Assembly: GCA_011939005.1 (NCBI GenBank)
Contig: GCA_011939005.1_4858.1
Direction: 5' to 3' (one strand)
Source of the DNA: a phage
DNA: 64,000 nucleotides
The notes under the pieces are model-generated. The model was not told the origin of the DNA and did no database searches. It saw only the letters and a list, made by a program, of their open reading frames with translations. The translations under genes were made by a program, and so were the position numbers. Shown piece by piece: positions 3,457 through 9,223 of the stretch (the stretch's first letter is position 1; every line of letters begins with the position of its first letter).

Positions 3457-3921
3457 TTAAAGCTCCTTTACCATATCCTGGTATTCAGTTCGGAATCCGA
3501 AACGTTCATAAAACGCAATAGCACGGTCGTTATTACCGAGCACGTTAAGCTGCATCCATGCGCAGCCTTTTGATTTGCCGTAGTTTTCTACGGCTTCGAT
3601 TAGTTCATGGCCAACGCCTTGCGAACGAACCGATTCATCTACAAAAAAGTTATATACCCAGAGGAAACGTTGTCCCTTTTTGGTGTAGCCGAAGGTGATG
3701 AAACCAACAGCCACACCACGGTCATCAACGGCGCAAGCGCATAGCGTACCTTCACCCCAAACCTCCTCCAGTTTTGAGATTTGATTAAAACCATCACGAC
3801 CGTTTAAGTCGGCGAGTTTTATTTTCTGATCGTCGTATAACTTGTTGTGTAGTCCTAACAAGTCGGCGTAGTATTTCTTTCCATACGGGGAGTTGGGCTT
3901 GGTGACAAAAACGATTTTCAT
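3457..3921 (-). CDS. GNAT family N-acetyltransferase
   Basis: acetyl-CoA binding motif RSQGVGHELIEAVENYGKSKGC and ...AIAFYERFGF; GGAGGG SD; start ATG overlaps upstream stop (ATGA). Confidence 0.6.
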   Translation of the reverse strand: MKIVFVTKPNSPYGKKYYADLLGLHNKLYDDQKIKLADLNGRDGFNQISKLEEVWGEGTLCACAVDDRGVAVGFITFGYTKKGQRFLWVYNFFVDESVRSQGVGHELIEAVENYGKSKGCAWMQLNVLGNNDRAIAFYERFGFRTEYQDMVKEL

Positions 3922-4382
3922 CACACCCTCCAATACATCTGGTAAGCACCTACCTTAAAGCCAGCTTTGTCGTAGAGCGACTTCGCGGCAGCGTTACCGG
4001 CGTTCACGGACAGGTGAACAACTGTACACCCTTTTTCCGTTGCGGATTTCTTTACCGCATCCATCAACGCGGCGCCGTAACCTTTACCACGTGCGCTGCT
4101 GCTAACGACCAGTGAGGATACCGACATCATCGTCACACCCTCTTCAGTCATCGTGCGGTATTGCGCAAAGCCATACAAGACACCGTCGTCCACGACCGCC
4201 AGTAAACGACCCCGGAAGCGCTCGGCTAACGATTTAGCCGGCGTAAAACGGACATTAATACCCGTCTCTTTTCGATAGCTTTCTATTTCGCTTTTGTCCA
4301 GCTCGTTATAAAGCGCGAGGATATCTGTGGAATATTTCCTGCCGTTAGCCGTGTCTGGCCCCACTATGGTAATAATCTTCAT
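3921..4382 (-). CDS. GNAT family N-acetyltransferase (second, tandem)
   Basis: motif ARGKGYGAALMDAVKKSATEKGC ... AAAKSLYDKAGF; GAGGTGA SD; ATGA overlap with upstream gene. Confidence 0.6.
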   Translation of the reverse strand: MKIITIVGPDTANGRKYSTDILALYNELDKSEIESYRKETGINVRFTPAKSLAERFRGRLLAVVDDGVLYGFAQYRTMTEEGVTMMSVSSLVVSSSARGKGYGAALMDAVKKSATEKGCTVVHLSVNAGNAAAKSLYDKAGFKVGAYQMYWRV

Positions 4383-5515
4383 CAGTTCACCTCGGCCAGC
4401 GATTGCTTCGTCCACTCCATTAGACCCTCCGCCACGCGTACCAGTGCCGTGGTGAAAGCGTCTTCCATCGCCATTGCATTACGGTAACGTAACGTGGCCT
4501 CCTTCAGCTCATCCCCTTCTAGGTTCTTAAGCTCGGACTTCATCGCTTCCACTTCTTCGTAAATGCCGGTGTAACCCACAACACGGTTCTTTGTTCCACG
4601 TGCAGCAATAGATTTGATAAGTGCTTCCACAGCCTCTATTGCTTTCCCACACTGATGCATATCCAGCGATTTAATGGTTTCACCATACTCACCGTCACGC
4701 GCAATTGCCCAACTGACCTTACCACTATGGTGCTCAACCACAACGATATTTCCAGGGACAGGAAAAGCTTCCACCTTTTTAAAGGGATCGATGATGCCAA
4801 GCAACCCAGCAGCACGCTTAACTGCCCAGTTCGTAGACTTGCTGATTTGTTTTAAACCTGGGCCTTCAAATGCTTTACTTTTCTTCAGGGCGGTACGTGT
4901 GTAAACTGTGTACTTTTGCACGACCCCTTCGTACGCGTTTGTCTGTTTAGAAAACTTAACACACGCTTCAAAATCTGGCCGATCTTCAAAACAAATTTTA
5001 GACGTCCAGCTACTCGTGTGAACGTCGACCGCAGCGAGTGTTTTGTGGTCATCCAATAACGACATTCGTGCTTTGAGCTTATTGAGCTTACGCTCCATGA
5101 ATGCGGCTTTCGAAGTTATTTCTTTCAAACGGTCGGCTTGTTCTTTCGCTAGCGCTTCCGCGAAATCGTAAAAGCGTAATGCGAGCTTTTTCGAAAGTTT
5201 ACCCGCGCCCTTTGCGGTTGCGCCTAGTCCAGCACCCACTAACTTTCCAGTACCTTTAACAGCTTTCGCAGTAATGCGCCCTGCTGCGCGATGGATGCCA
5301 GCCCGCGGGTCAGTATCAGTCATAAACTGAGCACGCTCCATCGCTTCGCGCGATTCACGAGCAACCAACATATCTTCACCGTCGTCGGTTAAGCACCAAC
5401 GCTGACGAATCGCGCAAACCGCAGGGAAGTCGGGCTTAACTCCCAGACCTTCGAGTGCGACCAGGCGATCGTAGTCGTCAGTCAGGACTTCTAAATCTAA
5501 ATCGAGCGTCGACAT
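4382..5515 (-). CDS. hypothetical protein, possible virion protein
   Basis: 377-aa ORF, AAGGAG SD; Ala/Gly/Lys-rich central region. Confidence 0.5.
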   Translation of the reverse strand: MSTLDLDLEVLTDDYDRLVALEGLGVKPDFPAVCAIRQRWCLTDDGEDMLVARESREAMERAQFMTDTDPRAGIHRAAGRITAKAVKGTGKLVGAGLGATAKGAGKLSKKLALRFYDFAEALAKEQADRLKEITSKAAFMERKLNKLKARMSLLDDHKTLAAVDVHTSSWTSKICFEDRPDFEACVKFSKQTNAYEGVVQKYTVYTRTALKKSKAFEGPGLKQISKSTNWAVKRAAGLLGIIDPFKKVEAFPVPGNIVVVEHHSGKVSWAIARDGEYGETIKSLDMHQCGKAIEAVEALIKSIAARGTKNRVVGYTGIYEEVEAMKSELKNLEGDELKEATLRYRNAMAMEDAFTTALVRVAEGLMEWTKQSLAEVN

Positions 5516-5828: not shown

Positions 5829-6428
5829 TCATAATAAGCACAAGCTCTCAAGCCACAGATGTCCTTCAAGCGCATGGTGGTAACAAGGAATACCACACTG
5901 CTTAGCGTATTTCACGCCCATGGCAGTACCGCCGGTCGGATTACCTTGTTTATCTAAAGGCGCAGAGTAATAAACTGCGTCTACAGGCGTTGCTAAATCA
6001 TCGCCCATAATTATATTCAGATTACGGCCATGAAGCGCCCAGGCGAACTCCTGGAGCTTTTCTGGCGCGGGATGAAGCTTACCTACTATCTCACGATAGC
6101 GGTCATCCTGAGGGATTACACGGAACTCTACGTTGGGATTCTGTTTCTTGAGCCAGAGCTTTTTCTCATCGGGTAGGTAACAAATGAACTCATCATCCCA
6201 CGCCATTTTCTTGCCGGTGTTCTGGTCTATTGTATTCGCCCACTGTCGGGCAAATCGGAATTGCAATTGGTCTGGACCACACCAGCAGCCGCCAGAAGAA
6301 AAACGAATCGTGTAATCTTTGGCGTGCAGCGCATTAAACCCACGTAACAATCGCATGTACATTTCAGACATGGTATCTTCATCAGTCTTCCGAGAACCGA
6401 TTACCGCAATTTTATAAATCTTTTTCAT
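5829..6428 (-). CDS. SLOG-superfamily Rossmann-fold protein (DprA/LOG-like), putative
   Basis: N-terminal KIAVIGSR and C-terminal PTGGTAMG resemble DprA/LOG family signatures; strong AGGAGGT SD. Confidence 0.35.
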   Translation of the reverse strand: MKKIYKIAVIGSRKTDEDTMSEMYMRLLRGFNALHAKDYTIRFSSGGCWCGPDQLQFRFARQWANTIDQNTGKKMAWDDEFICYLPDEKKLWLKKQNPNVEFRVIPQDDRYREIVGKLHPAPEKLQEFAWALHGRNLNIIMGDDLATPVDAVYYSAPLDKQGNPTGGTAMGVKYAKQCGIPCYHHALEGHLWLESLCLL

Positions 6429-6477
6429 GGACTTACCTCCTATACGGAGTGGACGATTCGTAAGAAAAAATAAATAC

Positions 6478-6504
6478 CTACCCTCGCTAAACGGGCGAGG
6501 GTAG
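6478..6504 (-). terminator. intrinsic terminator hairpin
   Basis: stem CTACCCTCGC/GCGAGGGTAG; A-run on + side 6463-6470; downstream of stop of 6509-7126. Confidence 0.45.
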
Positions 6505-6508
6505 TGTC

Positions 6509-7126
6509 TTAAACAAACTCACGATAACGAAAACCGTTAAGCTTCGTGATAGTCACTTCTTCTAACAGCTTACACCCCCAGAAACCAGCCAAGTCGTATT
6601 CCAGACCAGGCAACGTTGTCTTGGTTAAGTCTTGGCCGATATGGTACGGTAGCGTAATGCGTGTGCGCGATTCGTAAACAAATGATTCACATTCATAGAC
6701 GAGGACGTATCGATCAGTCGGGATGTCGTACTCTACGTGGCATTGCGCGGGGTTTTCCCACGCCTTACTTACAACGATGCCGCGTTCTGCACACGCCGAT
6801 TCAAAACTGACCATTGCAGGTTCAGACCATACGCGCAAATCGGCCGGTTTACCTTTCGACAAATCAAACCATGTGAGATGTTCAGGTTTCAACGTGATTA
6901 TATCATTTAGGCTCAATTTGCGGTAACGCACAACCACATAGTCATCTGGCTTACTCTTATTAGTCAGCAAAGCACTTACACGACCGTCCGGTTCCGGTGG
7001 ACCATAACTCTCCACTCGGATACGTTCTGTGGTCAGGGGCGTATAAACGGTTTCAGCATTAAAAGCATTGACTAAATCGAGCAAGGTTTGACTATGATGG
7101 TGGTTAAAGTCAATAACAAAAGACAT
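6509..7126 (-). CDS. hypothetical protein
   Basis: start placed at internal ATG 7126 with AGGAGCGAGG SD; ORF-track start at 7159 lacks an SD. Confidence 0.5.
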   Translation of the reverse strand: MSFVIDFNHHHSQTLLDLVNAFNAETVYTPLTTERIRVESYGPPEPDGRVSALLTNKSKPDDYVVVRYRKLSLNDIITLKPEHLTWFDLSKGKPADLRVWSEPAMVSFESACAERGIVVSKAWENPAQCHVEYDIPTDRYVLVYECESFVYESRTRITLPYHIGQDLTKTTLPGLEYDLAGFWGCKLLEEVTITKLNGFRYREFV

Positions 7127-7186
7127 GCCTCGCTCCTGGTATTTGATTAAGGGGGTCATAATACTTCACAGGAAAATAATAAACAG

Positions 7187-7208
7187 TATAGGGGCCGAAG
7201 CCCCTATA
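7187..7208 (-). terminator. intrinsic terminator hairpin, UUCG loop
   Basis: stem TATAGGGGC/GCCCCTATA with CGAA loop on +; A-rich on + side upstream; follows stop of 7217-7606. Confidence 0.45.
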
Positions 7209-7216
7209 CGCTGTGT

Positions 7217-7606
7217 TTAATAATCGTACAAAGGATACCGTGCGGAAATTTCTTTACCTACCCAAAAAGTTAACTGGTGGGTATTAACGCTGCGGTGTGT
7301 TCGTACTGACGGGACAATTGTCGCTTTAACTTTCGGCGAACATGTACCGGCATCTATTGGCTGGTACGTCTTGCGCTTTGTGTTAACGAGATAAAAGCCA
7401 CCGCCCGGACACAGTTCAGAACGCCCGTAGTTGACCACGGCAAACTCACCCTTCTCCACTGTCACGACTGGTTCATCTTTGTCGCTAAATTTTACAGGTG
7501 CGTCGGTTTCCCACATCGGTTTATACTGCGGGAAGTCCTGAATGGTAAAGGCGTTTACTGGCGCAGTAACGCAGAGTATAAACACAGCTAATACAGCACG
7601 CATCAT
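7217..7606 (-). CDS. secreted/periplasmic protein (signal peptide)
   Basis: N-terminus MMRAVLAVFILCVTAPVNA has n-h-c signal peptide features with AxA-like cleavage site. Confidence 0.5.
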   Translation of the reverse strand: MMRAVLAVFILCVTAPVNAFTIQDFPQYKPMWETDAPVKFSDKDEPVVTVEKGEFAVVNYGRSELCPGGGFYLVNTKRKTYQPIDAGTCSPKVKATIVPSVRTHRSVNTHQLTFWVGKEISARYPLYDY

Positions 7607-8102: not shown

Positions 8103-8585
8103 TTAGACGAAATGACCTTCTGCCATCGAAAGAAAAATGGGAACGCTTTCGGCGTAATGTGTTAAAAGCTTTTCCTCCGGTGGCGTGTGTGACGAAATAA
8201 CATTGTAGTTCGTCATACGAAAATACCGTTGGCCGTCAGCAGCAATATACCATCGGTCAATCTGGAAGCCTTGTTGGTGAAAGAATCCTAGCGCGGGAAT
8301 GTTGGTCGGGTGAACACGACAGCTGACGTGTTTACGATCGGAGTTCTGCTGAAGATACTTAAGCATAAACCTGCCGACACCACCGCGGCGAGATTCTTCG
8401 GGTACAACCATATAGACCAAATGGCCAGGTTCCCATGCCATGATTCCCCGCACGATATCATCCTCAACAAACATCGTGAGTTTAATAGGCTCCTCGCGGA
8501 TACTGTTTAAGTCGCGCACCCATTCAACCAGTTCAGGATAAACATTCGCGGGAATCTTATCCTCGACCACATTAATAACAAGCAT
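8103..8585 (-). CDS. GNAT-like acetyltransferase (third)
   Basis: motif ESRRGGVGRFMLKYLQ ... PALGFFHQQGF; ATG at 8585 overlaps upstream stop (ATGA). Confidence 0.4.
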   Translation of the reverse strand: MLVINVVEDKIPANVYPELVEWVRDLNSIREEPIKLTMFVEDDIVRGIMAWEPGHLVYMVVPEESRRGGVGRFMLKYLQQNSDRKHVSCRVHPTNIPALGFFHQQGFQIDRWYIAADGQRYFRMTNYNVISSHTPPEEKLLTHYAESVPIFLSMAEGHFV

Positions 8586-9223
8586 CACTTCTCTCCACTA
8601 AGCAGGTATATGGCTTCTGCCAATGACAGGGACGGTTTTAACAGCATGTGTAGCGGCAGGATTGTTGAACGGTGAAACTGTGCCGGTGTTTTTGCCAGGT
8701 GTTCCAGATAGCGATTGACTGACATTTCTTGCCAATCGATAGTAGGTCGAACCCAGCTTATCTGTAACCATTTCCCCAATGAGACGTCACGCTTACCGCG
8801 TGGCATAATTATACTTAACTTGTACCCGTGGTCGAACTGACGCGGTGGATGACCTGGTTCCCAAGGAACTTCGGGACCTAACGCATCTGCAAGAAACCCT
8901 TCTTTAATTAACACATTTCTGACGGCAGCGAATATCCGTCCTCGTTGCGCGGTGATCTCTTTGACGTGTGCCATGGCATTTAGTTTACGTTTGGTAATTG
9001 CAGCGGAAAGCGCGCTGACAAACTGCCCTTCAACATACGGGGCGTTTAAGCAGCTACGAAACGGCACTACGTAAAACGCCTCCCACAATACTTCTTCGAC
9101 TGCCGCCAATAACAGCGCTTCTTTCTCAGCTGCAGTAAAATCCACAGACAGCATTTTGGTAAACGAACCTAATATAGCGCTAAACGGTAGTAGTACAGAC
9201 CGTTGACGAAATTGTAATTGCAT
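8585..9223 (-). CDS. hypothetical protein
   Basis: 212-aa ORF, AAGGAA SD upstream of ATG 9223. Confidence 0.5.
   Translation of the reverse strand: MQLQFRQRSVLLPFSAILGSFTKMLSVDFTAAEKEALLLAAVEEVLWEAFYVVPFRSCLNAPYVEGQFVSALSAAITKRKLNAMAHVKEITAQRGRIFAAVRNVLIKEGFLADALGPEVPWEPGHPPRQFDHGYKLSIIMPRGKRDVSLGKWLQISWVRPTIDWQEMSVNRYLEHLAKTPAQFHRSTILPLHMLLKPSLSLAEAIYLLSGEK

What the first reader, a model, noticed from the sequence alone, without database searches (positions are those of the whole stretch)
5829..6428. SLOG-type Rossmann protein (DprA/LOG-like) in a phage early region
KIAVIGSR near the N-terminus and PTGGTAMG near the C-terminus match signatures of the SLOG superfamily (DprA, LOG, YpsA-like). 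Such domains bind nucleotides or their derivatives and appear in conflict systems. The gene has a strong AGGAGGT SD.
Basis: inference. Interest (0 to 1): 0.45.

Follow-up and report, generated by a model that had tools for sequence, protein, structure and literature searches.

The report
Phage stand-alone DprA-like SLOG protein
This is a real gene of an SPN3US-type jumbo phage that encodes a small DprA-like (SLOG-fold) protein, probably a single-stranded-DNA binder; public phage databases already annotate it this way, so it is ordinary, although nobody has tested its function.

Summary
A 199-aa ORF lies at 5829..6428 on the minus strand. It carries KIAVIGSR (aa 6-13) and PTGGTAMG (aa 164-171), and AGGAGGT sits 6 nt before the ATG.

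The window is a Seoulvirus (SPN3US-like, ~240 kb). The gene is the SPN3US gp92 orthologue.

- **Family:** it belongs to PHROG 768, "DprA-like DNA recombination-mediator protein" (E 2.8e-47). Close relatives carry that name in GenBank.
- **Motifs:** both published DprA-domain motifs are present and family-invariant: G-S-R (11-13) and L-x-x-R-N (132-136). The LOG motif PGGxGTxxE is absent.
- **Differences from DprA:** it is a bare Rossmann core without SAM or winged-helix domains. It falls below Pfam thresholds and has its own conserved histidines (H119, H133).
- **Relatives:** they are widespread in lytic phages. In mobile-element polyvalent proteins the domain is fused to SF1 helicases, NADAR, Macro and AlkB-like domains.

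Most likely it binds ssDNA during phage recombination or repair. A role in sensing or processing ADP-ribose derivatives is the main rival. The "early region" label is unverified. Verdict: already known, low interest.

The parts
5829..6428 (-). CDS, 199 aa: stand-alone DprA-type SLOG domain protein, orthologue of SPN3US_0092 (gp92), member of PHROG 768
6435..6441 (-). Shine-Dalgarno AGGAGGT, 6 nt before the ATG
   Evidence: Read directly from the sequence (reverse complement of 6429-6441 = AGGAGGTAAGTCC, then ATG)
6478..6504 (-). Terminator-like G+C-rich hairpin followed by a T-run, between the upstream gene (6509..7159) and this gene. It may mark a transcript boundary, in which case this gene begins a new unit.
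   Evidence: Consensus scan, (10-bp stem, 7 GC pairs). This is a pattern match only.
6390..6398 (-). [quoted passage not shown] R13 is the equivalent of HpDprA R52 and ShosA R139.
   Evidence: G11 and R13 in 48/48 and S12 in 47/48 family members; aligned to GSR of DprA chains by hmmsearch and hhalign; motif definition and mutagenesis in PMC3950713 and PMC12961424
6270..6296 (-). Codons for S45-G46-G47-C-W-C-G51-P-D53 = the SGGxxGxD loop and helix N-terminus after strand 2, shared with DprA (SGxAxGID)
   Evidence: G46, G51 and D53 invariant, S45 in 44/48; aligned to DprA SGLAxGID
6069..6074 (-). Codons for H119-P120: a family-specific conserved His-Pro not explained by the DprA model
   Evidence: H in 46/48, P in 44/48
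6021..6035 (-). Codons for L132-H133-G134-R135-N136 = DprA motif 2 (F/L/Y-x-x-R-N/D), in helix 127-141. R135/N136 are the equivalents of HpDprA R143/N144. H133 is family-specific.
   Evidence: R135 48/48, N136 47/48, L132 41/48, H133 45/48; helix assignment; relaxed hhalign pairs LHGRN with E. coli Smf FPRRN; only one match to the motif in the protein
5925..5933 (-). Codons for G166-G167-T168 at the N-terminus of helix 167-177.
   Evidence: Invariant 48/48; aligned to DprA SGS/GSM; role of G164 from PMC3950713

Best explanation
The gene encodes the SPN3US-gp92-type protein, a minimal single-domain DprA-type SLOG (Rossmannoid) protein.

Most likely it binds single-stranded nucleic acid, chiefly ssDNA, the way the DprA domain does. 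In that mode a small basic pocket at the C-terminal edge of the sheet accepts one flipped-in base. Here the pocket would be built from R13 (GSR loop), L132/R135/N136 (L-x-x-R-N helix) and G167 (GGT loop).

In the infected cell it would act on replication, recombination or repair intermediates. It could coat or protect ssDNA and assist the phage's own UvsX-like recombinase, which in this phage group has no annotated UvsY-type mediator.

What is shown: the gene is real, it has the SLOG fold, its closest affinity is DprA, both DprA ssDNA-binding motifs are retained, and the domain is fused to ssDNA-acting enzymes in relatives. What is inferred: ssDNA binding itself, any recombinase partnership, and timing.
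For: 2. Sequence.
   - The family profile A2 hits five DprA PDB sequences at 1e-4 to 4e-4 and nothing else significant.
   - 26/48 members hit Pfam DNA_processg_A (best 3e-8), against 10 for LDcluster4 and 5 for YAcAr.
   - hhalign against Smf gives prob 85%, E 6.5e-6.
   - All four motifs line up in order in a relaxed alignment.
3. Motifs. Both motifs proposed to define the DprA domain (G-S/T/A-R and F/L/Y-x-x-R-N/D; PMC3950713) are present and essentially invariant. The arginines in these two motifs are the ones whose mutation abolishes ssDNA binding in HpDprA (R52E, R143E; PMC3950713) and in ShosA (R139, R234; PMC12961424).
4. No LOG-type catalytic signature and no conserved acidic residue after strand 3.
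5. Fusions in relatives are to enzymes that work on ssDNA or DNA lesions. These are RecD/Pif1/TraI-type SF1 helicases (P0072, P0079, P0089, P0143), an AlkB-like dioxygenase (P0081), and NADAR and Macro domains (P0065, P0081, P0106, P0133).
6. Gene neighbours in other phages are nucleic-acid enzymes: NAD-dependent DNA ligase in T5-like My1, DNA polymerase in Rhizobium phage IC12, RNA ligase in T4-like phages.
7. The close relative SPLA3 encodes a UvsX-like recombinase, SbcCD and a RuvC-like resolvase, but no annotated UvsY- or gp32-type protein. Iyer et al. 2021 made the same suggestion for jumbo-phage DprA/Smf (PMC7824862).
Against: - No experiment exists for any member of this phage family that I could find.
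- The window protein itself has no Pfam, NCBIfam or PDB sequence hit. Profile similarity to DprA is significant only over the first ~55 residues.
- It lacks the SAM and winged-helix domains. Nothing shows that the dimer and RecA-binding surfaces needed for DprA's mediator function are present.
- The family also occurs in T4-like phages, which have UvsY (my own knowledge of T4-like phages; not checked with the tools here), and in T5-like phages. A general role as a 'UvsY substitute' is therefore unlikely.
- Two nearly invariant histidines (H119, H133) have no counterpart in DprA and hint at a different ligand or chemistry.
- Family pI values range from 4.4 to 10.4 (median 7.8; window protein 8.2). 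The family is not uniformly basic.
- NADAR and Macro fusions fit an ADP-ribose-centred role equally well (PMC9503650).
Confidence: 0.5

Rival explanations
1. It senses, sequesters or hydrolyses a small nucleotide-derived molecule (NAD+, ADP-ribose, cyclic ADPR isomers or similar). In that role it would be a counter-defence factor that blunts host NAD+/ADPr-based immunity such as Thoeris. This is the role Iyer et al. 2022 predicted for most viral SLOG domains.
For: - Relatives are fused to NADAR and Macro domains, exactly the architecture cited in PMC9503650.
- Conserved Gly-rich loops and two family-specific histidines could form a ligand or active site.
- In T5-like My1 the gene overlaps an NAD-dependent ligase gene. 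A macro-domain gene lies 3 kb away in Pseudomonas phage Y1-MI.
Against: - The nearest relatives by sequence and structure are DprA and ShosA, both shown to bind ssDNA, not ThsA or LOG.
- The LOG catalytic motif PGGxGTxxE is absent, and no acidic residue is conserved after strand 3.
- NADAR and Macro enzymes also remove ADP-ribose from ssDNA bases (DarT-type modification; my own knowledge). SF1 helicase and AlkB fusions point to DNA.
- No NADAR or Macro gene is annotated in the SPN3US-like relative.
Confidence: 0.25
2. It is an ssDNA-lesion-targeting module. It uses the DprA-type base pocket to recognise a modified or damaged base (for example ADP-ribosylated or alkylated) in phage ssDNA. It then recruits or assists repair enzymes or ligases, countering DNA-modifying defences such as DarTG.
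For: - Fusion of the domain with an AlkB-like dioxygenase plus NADAR (P0081), and with NADAR plus Macro (P0106).
- Adjacency to DNA or RNA ligase genes in two unrelated phage groups.
- The base-in-pocket binding mode of DprA (PMC3950713).
Against: This is purely contextual. The stand-alone SPN3US-type protein has no such partner next to it; its neighbours are unknowns and GNATs. No annotated NADAR, Macro or AlkB gene occurs in the genome.
Confidence: 0.12
3. It is a phage mimic of the DprA-like antitoxin ShosA and neutralises ShosT-type toxins of the ShosTA defence system.
Against: ShosA needs its SAM domain, dimerisation and direct RecA binding (PMC12961424). None of these is evident in this 199-aa core. 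The family has no PADLOC hit, and its wide distribution is not tied to ShosTA hosts.
Confidence: 0.03
4. It is a LOG-type phosphoribohydrolase or nucleoside-processing enzyme involved in nucleotide metabolism.
Against: The LOG signature PGGxGTxxE is absent. There is no Pfam Lysine_decarbox hit for any of the 48 family members. LOG ranks below DprA, YpsA and MCP in both fold searches.
Confidence: 0.03

Closest known systems
DprA/Smf, DNA-processing protein A (Pfam PF02481), Rossmann-fold 'DprA domain'
   Same: - Same order of motifs: G-S-R after strand 1, SGxxxGxD after strand 2, (F/L/Y)-x-x-R-N helix, and a small-residue G loop before the last helix pair.
- The arginines required for ssDNA binding are conserved (PMC3950713).
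   Different: - It is only the Rossmann core: no SAM domain and no C-terminal winged helix (the E. coli Smf relatives carry PF17782 and PF25317).
- The window protein does not reach the Pfam threshold.
- Identity to DprA structures is 14-18%.
- It has extra conserved H119-P120 and H133.
- Dimer and RecA-binding surfaces are not demonstrable.
- It is encoded by lytic phages and mobile elements, not by a competence regulon.
PHROG 768 / phi92 gp047-like phage proteins annotated 'DprA-like DNA recombination-mediator protein'
   Same: This is the family the protein belongs to (E 2.8e-47, near full length). BFVD structural matches reach TM 0.6-0.75. SPLA3, Erwinia phages and others carry the same annotation.
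   Different: Nothing substantive. The SPN3US/Erwinia jumbo-phage branch has Cys/Trp in the second loop (SGGCWxGPD) where most members have SGGAxGAD.
ShosA, the DprA-like antitoxin of the ShosTA anti-phage system (PDB 8zva, 9vzo)
   Same: DprA-type SLOG domain with the two key arginines conserved; it is shown to bind ssDNA (PMC12961424).
   Different: ShosA has a SAM domain, an extra C-terminal helix, an obligate dimer and a RecA interface. It is host-encoded and paired with a PRTase toxin.
YAcAr/DUF2493 (PF10686) and YpsA (DUF1273) SLOG families, the 'YpsA-like clade' to which Iyer et al. 2022 assign most viral SLOG domains
   Different: YAcAr-type viral proteins form only a second structural tier (TM 0.4-0.5 against 0.6-0.75). 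Pfam hits favour DprA 26 to 5.
LOG / 'lysine decarboxylase-like' cytokinin phosphoribohydrolases (PF03641)
   Different: The catalytic PGGxGTxxE motif is absent, and no member hits the Pfam model.

Membership tests
SLOG superfamily (SMF/DprA-LOG Rossmannoid fold) | Three-layer alpha/beta Rossmannoid fold with a parallel sheet and ligand-binding loops after strands 1, 2 and the penultimate strand | tested here: met
   [not shown]
DprA domain (PF02481) | Motif 1, G-S/T/A-R in the loop after the first core strand (PMC3950713) | tested here: met
   G11-S12-R13 directly after strand 3-11. Invariant or near-invariant in 48 family members. Aligned to the DprA GSR/GTR motif.
DprA domain (PF02481) | Motif 2, F/L/Y-x-x-R-N/D in a helix lining the base pocket (PMC3950713) | tested here: met
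   L132-H-G-R135-N136 within helix 127-141. R 48/48, N 47/48, L 41/48. Single occurrence in the protein. Paired with Smf FPRRN in the relaxed hhalign, a low-confidence part of that alignment.
DprA domain (PF02481) | Match to the curated Pfam model at its gathering score | tested here: not met
   The window protein has no Pfam hit even at E<=10. 26/48 relatives hit PF02481 at E<=1 (best 3e-8). P0052 scored 21.6 bits against a cut-off of 29.6.
DprA domain (PF02481) | DprA is the closest solved structure, clearly ahead of other SLOG families | tested here: inconclusive
   [not shown]
Canonical bacterial DprA/Smf protein | Accessory domains: N-terminal SAM and/or C-terminal winged helix | tested here: not met
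   The 199 aa are entirely taken up by the Rossmann core. E. coli-type Smf proteins carry PF17782 and PF25317 in addition.
Canonical bacterial DprA/Smf protein | ssDNA binding, dimerisation, and RecA binding and loading | not testable with these tools
   Requires biochemistry, or multimer or nucleic-acid structure prediction, neither available here.
LOG family (PF03641) | Catalytic motif PGGxGTxxE | tested here: not met
   Regex search finds no match; the corresponding segment is PTGGTAMGV. No family member hits the Pfam LOG model.
YAcAr / YpsA-like clade (PF10686, PF06908) | Profile match to these models, and closest structural tier among viral proteins | tested here: not met
   0 hits for the window protein. 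5/48 relatives weakly hit YAcAr and 1 hits cpYpsA. BFVD YspA/DUF2493 proteins have TM 0.4-0.5 against 0.6-0.75 for the DprA-like tier. No full clade phylogeny was done.
PHROG 768 (phage 'DprA-like DNA recombination-mediator protein') | Significant near-full-length match to the PHROG profile | tested here: met
   E=2.8e-47, 161.8 bits, aa 4-189 on profile positions 3-170 of 191.
Known anti-phage defence proteins (PADLOC) | Match to any defence-system model, including ShosA and ThsA | tested here: not met
   No PADLOC hit at E<=10.

The most novel reading that the evidence does not exclude
The PHROG-768 family may not be a recombination mediator at all. It may be a base-flipping ssDNA reader, or a histidine-dependent enzyme, that phages and conjugative elements use against DNA-modifying or ADP-ribose-based host immunity. 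It would recognise or remove ADP-ribosylated or otherwise modified bases, or related soluble ADPr signals. Two observations fit this reading: the recurrent fusion to NADAR, Macro, AlkB-like and SF1-helicase domains, and the two family-specific invariant histidines next to the DprA-type pocket.
Probability: 0.15. Interest if true: 0.65.

Novelty: already known. Interest (0 to 1): 0.22.

Why it matters
As it stands the finding adds little. The gene is an orthologue of SPN3US gp92. It belongs to a catalogued phage family (PHROG 768), is already labelled DprA-like in GenBank records, and DprA/Smf genes in jumbo phages were discussed in the literature in 2021.

Two points remain of interest:
- The family is large: 1890 representatives at 50% identity, and hits in 633 of about 50,700 phage records. 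It has no Pfam model and no experimental characterisation.
- Two published predictions about viral SLOG proteins disagree, ssDNA binding against ADP-ribose signalling.

A simple binding experiment on this small, well-folded protein would settle which prediction is right. It would also show whether nucleus-forming jumbo phages use the protein as the missing mediator for their UvsX-like recombinase.

Tried and rejected
- **Direct library scans.** Pfam, NCBIfam and PADLOC scans and a PDB phmmer search of the window protein gave nothing. A profile of close homologues (A1) against the PDB gave only noise. The link to DprA appeared only with the broader 48-sequence profile A2.
- **hhalign against Smf.** With one E. 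coli Smf sequence or a low-diversity enterobacterial alignment it reached only 70-85% probability, over the first ~55 residues. The second database search with Smf returned only close relatives (>=68% identity), so the DprA profile stayed shallow.
- **Neighbouring genes in the window.** They are uninformative: unknown PHROGs, two GNATs and an internal-head-protein paralogue.
- **Timing.** I looked for transcription or proteome timing for SPN3US gp92 and found none. The only 'gp92' paper concerns phiKZ gp92, an unrelated injected protein. The sigma-70-type promoter scan is not meaningful for a phage that uses its own RNA polymerases.
- **Other failures.** One DOI guessed from memory was the wrong paper.
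- **Readings rejected.** LOG-type enzyme: motif absent. Host-type defence protein: no PADLOC hit, lytic-phage context. ShosA mimic: required domains are missing.

Full report
**1. What is in the sequence**

The finding's coordinates correspond exactly to one ORF, 5829..6428 on the minus strand. It has an ATG start and encodes 199 aa.
- KIAVIGSR is at residues 6-13 and PTGGTAMG at 164-171.
- On the coding strand the start is preceded by AGGAGGT (6441..6435) and a 6-nt spacer (sequence).
- A terminator-like hairpin with a T-run (6504..6478, same strand) lies between the upstream gene and this one.

The window is a Seoulvirus, a jumbo phage of the SPN3US group. The 2.5 kb around the gene is 97.9% identical to Escherichia phage vB_EcoM_Lh1B and the SPFM phages, and 95-99% identical in 33 records. 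The gene is the orthologue of SPN3US_0092. In Salmonella phage SPLA3 its orthologue is annotated "DprA-like DNA recombination-mediator protein".

**2. Is it real and non-random?**

Yes.
- It matches PHROG 768 at E=2.8e-47 over nearly its full length.
- It has full-length homologues down to 42% identity in other ~240-kb phage contigs.
- tblastn detects relatives in 633 phage records. These include T4-like, phi92-like, PVP-SE1-like, T5-like and PB1/PAK_P-like phages.
- An exhaustive HMM search finds 1890 cluster representatives at E<=1e-3.

The short peptide motifs would not be significant alone. Their invariance across the family is what counts.

**3. Fold**

An AlphaFold2 model built on 19 homologues is confident (pLDDT 93.7, pTM 0.90). 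It shows a Rossmannoid alternation of strands and helices.
- **Foldseek:** it ranks H. pylori DprA and ShosA first (E 2e-4 to 4e-3, TM ~0.5), then YpsA.
- **Predicted viral structures:** the best tier (TM 0.6-0.75) is phi92 gp047-like or "DprA-like" proteins. The YspA/DUF2493 proteins form a weaker second tier.

**4. Which SLOG branch?**

The window protein alone has no Pfam, NCBIfam, PADLOC or PDB sequence hit. I built a 48-sequence family alignment (A2) from the exhaustive search.
- Its profile reaches five DprA PDB sequences at 1e-4 to 4e-4 and nothing else of significance.
- 26 of the 48 members individually touch Pfam DNA_processg_A (best 3e-8). That compares with 10 for SLOG cluster 4 and 5 for YAcAr.
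- hhalign against an enterobacterial Smf alignment gives 85% probability, E 6.5e-6, over the first ~55 residues.
- A relaxed alignment lines up all four conserved segments in order: GSR/GSR, SGGxxGPD/SGLAxGID, LHGRN/FPRRN and GGT/SGS.

Wang et al. proposed two motifs as diagnostic of the DprA domain, G-S/T/A-R and F/L/Y-x-x-R-N/D. They contrasted these with the LOG signature PGGxGTxxE (PMC3950713). Here both DprA motifs are present: G11-S-R13, and L132-H-G-R135-N136 in helix 127-141. Both are essentially invariant in the family. The LOG motif is absent.

In HpDprA, R52E and R143E reduce ssDNA affinity by 315-fold and 173-fold, and the double mutant does not bind. N144 and G164 hold the inserted base. 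The equivalent ShosA arginines R139 and R234 are required for ssDNA binding and antitoxin function. Their equivalents here are R13, R135, N136 and G167, all invariant or nearly so.

**5. How it differs from canonical DprA**
- It is a bare Rossmann core with no SAM or winged-helix domain (compare).
- It is 14-18% identical to DprA structures and falls below the Pfam threshold.
- It has two nearly invariant histidines (H119-P120 and H133) with no DprA counterpart.
- No acidic residue is conserved after strand 3. That argues against LOG/TIR-type glycosidase chemistry, although the histidines remain unexplained.

**6. Context**

In this phage the neighbours are unknown proteins, two GNAT acetyltransferases and a phiKZ-type internal-head-protein paralogue. 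The wider same-strand block mixes virion genes, a RuvC-like resolvase, thymidylate kinase and a DNA methylase. Nothing shows that this is an "early region", and I found no timing data.

The close relative SPLA3 encodes a UvsX-like recombinase, SbcCD and RuvC. It has no annotated UvsY- or gp32-type protein and no annotated NADAR or Macro.

In other phages the homologue sits next to nucleic-acid enzymes:
- directly after RNA ligase in T4-like phages;
- overlapping the NAD-dependent DNA ligase gene in T5-like My1;
- directly before DNA polymerase in Rhizobium phage IC12.

About 40% of the best 146 representatives are longer than 260 aa. Of the 23 multidomain or distant relatives I scanned, four carried SF1 helicase domains, four NADAR, one Macro and one an AlkB-like dioxygenase. 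DUF7831 also occurs.

**7. Mechanism**

The best-supported reading (about 0.5) is DprA-like binding of single-stranded DNA. One base enters the conserved pocket. The protein would serve phage recombination or repair, and in this phage possibly assist the UvsX-like recombinase. Iyer et al. 2021 suggested the same for jumbo-phage DprA/Smf.

The main rival (about 0.25) is the later prediction from the same group. It holds that viral SLOG domains fused to Macro, NADAR or SF1 helicases sense or degrade ADP-ribose-derived immune signals.

A hybrid reading reconciles the fusions (about 0.12): an ssDNA-lesion reader that counters DNA ADP-ribosylation or alkylation. ShosA mimicry and LOG-type catalysis are unlikely.

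Against a universal "UvsY substitute" role, the family also occurs in T4-like and T5-like phages.

**8. Novelty and score**

The protein, its family and its DprA/SLOG nature are already in public annotation and in the literature, so this is "already known". The function is untested, and the two published predictions conflict, which gives a modest residual interest. Overall interest is 0.22.

Noticed in passing
window 6478-6504 (-) and 7186-7209 (both strands): Two strong terminator-like hairpins with T-runs. One lies just upstream of the DprA-like gene. The other is a perfect palindromic hairpin between ORFs 6509..7159 and 7217..7606. They suggest short transcription units inside a long same-strand gene block.
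   Followed up: partly
window 7217-7606 (-): A 129-aa ORF (PHROG 5248, unknown function) begins with a signal-peptide-like hydrophobic segment (MMRAVLAVFILCVTAPVNAF). It may be a secreted or membrane protein inside a DNA-metabolism/virion gene block.
   Followed up: no
window 4382-5515 (-), 3921-4415 (-), 8103-8588 (-): A phiKZ-type internal head protein paralogue (PHROG 2497, E 2e-88; PF12699 weak) is flanked by GNAT acetyltransferase genes. The 3921..4415 GNAT ORF overlaps the end of the head-protein ORF by 34 nt. Several GNAT paralogues occur in this part of SPN3US-like genomes.
   Followed up: partly
proteins P0026-P0032 (SPFM phage records; orthologous locus of window 5829-6428): Several deposited SPFM phage genomes encode this gene as odd 140-240-aa products. 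These match the family HMM in 6-9 short separate stretches, which looks like frameshift-ridden sequence or annotation rather than biology. In those records the locus is labelled Phi92_gp047.
   Followed up: no
proteins P0070, P0104, P0107, P0110, P0112, P0138, P0145, P0166: Giant 4000-5200-aa proteins carry the C-terminal half of this DprA-like domain at their extreme C-terminus. The only one scanned, P0070 (4146 aa), has no Pfam hit at E<=1e-4. These are presumably polyvalent proteins of mobile elements with uncharted domains.
   Followed up: partly
L005 3000-4555, L011 2383-3932 (T4-like phages); L006 4046-5522 (T5-like My1): Homologues of the gene are directly coupled to ligase genes in unrelated phage groups. 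In T4-like phages the partner is RNA ligase rnlB. In My1 it is the NAD-dependent DNA ligase, with overlapping stop and start. This recurrent ligase association has not been explained.
   Followed up: partly
SPLA3 record OR413581.1 (L001, L004, L013-L016): This close relative of the window's phage has a UvsX-like recombinase, SbcC/SbcD, a RuvC-like resolvase and an exonuclease, but no annotated recombination mediator or SSB. It also carries two adjacent radical-SAM genes (150.9-153.2 kb) of unknown role.
   Followed up: no
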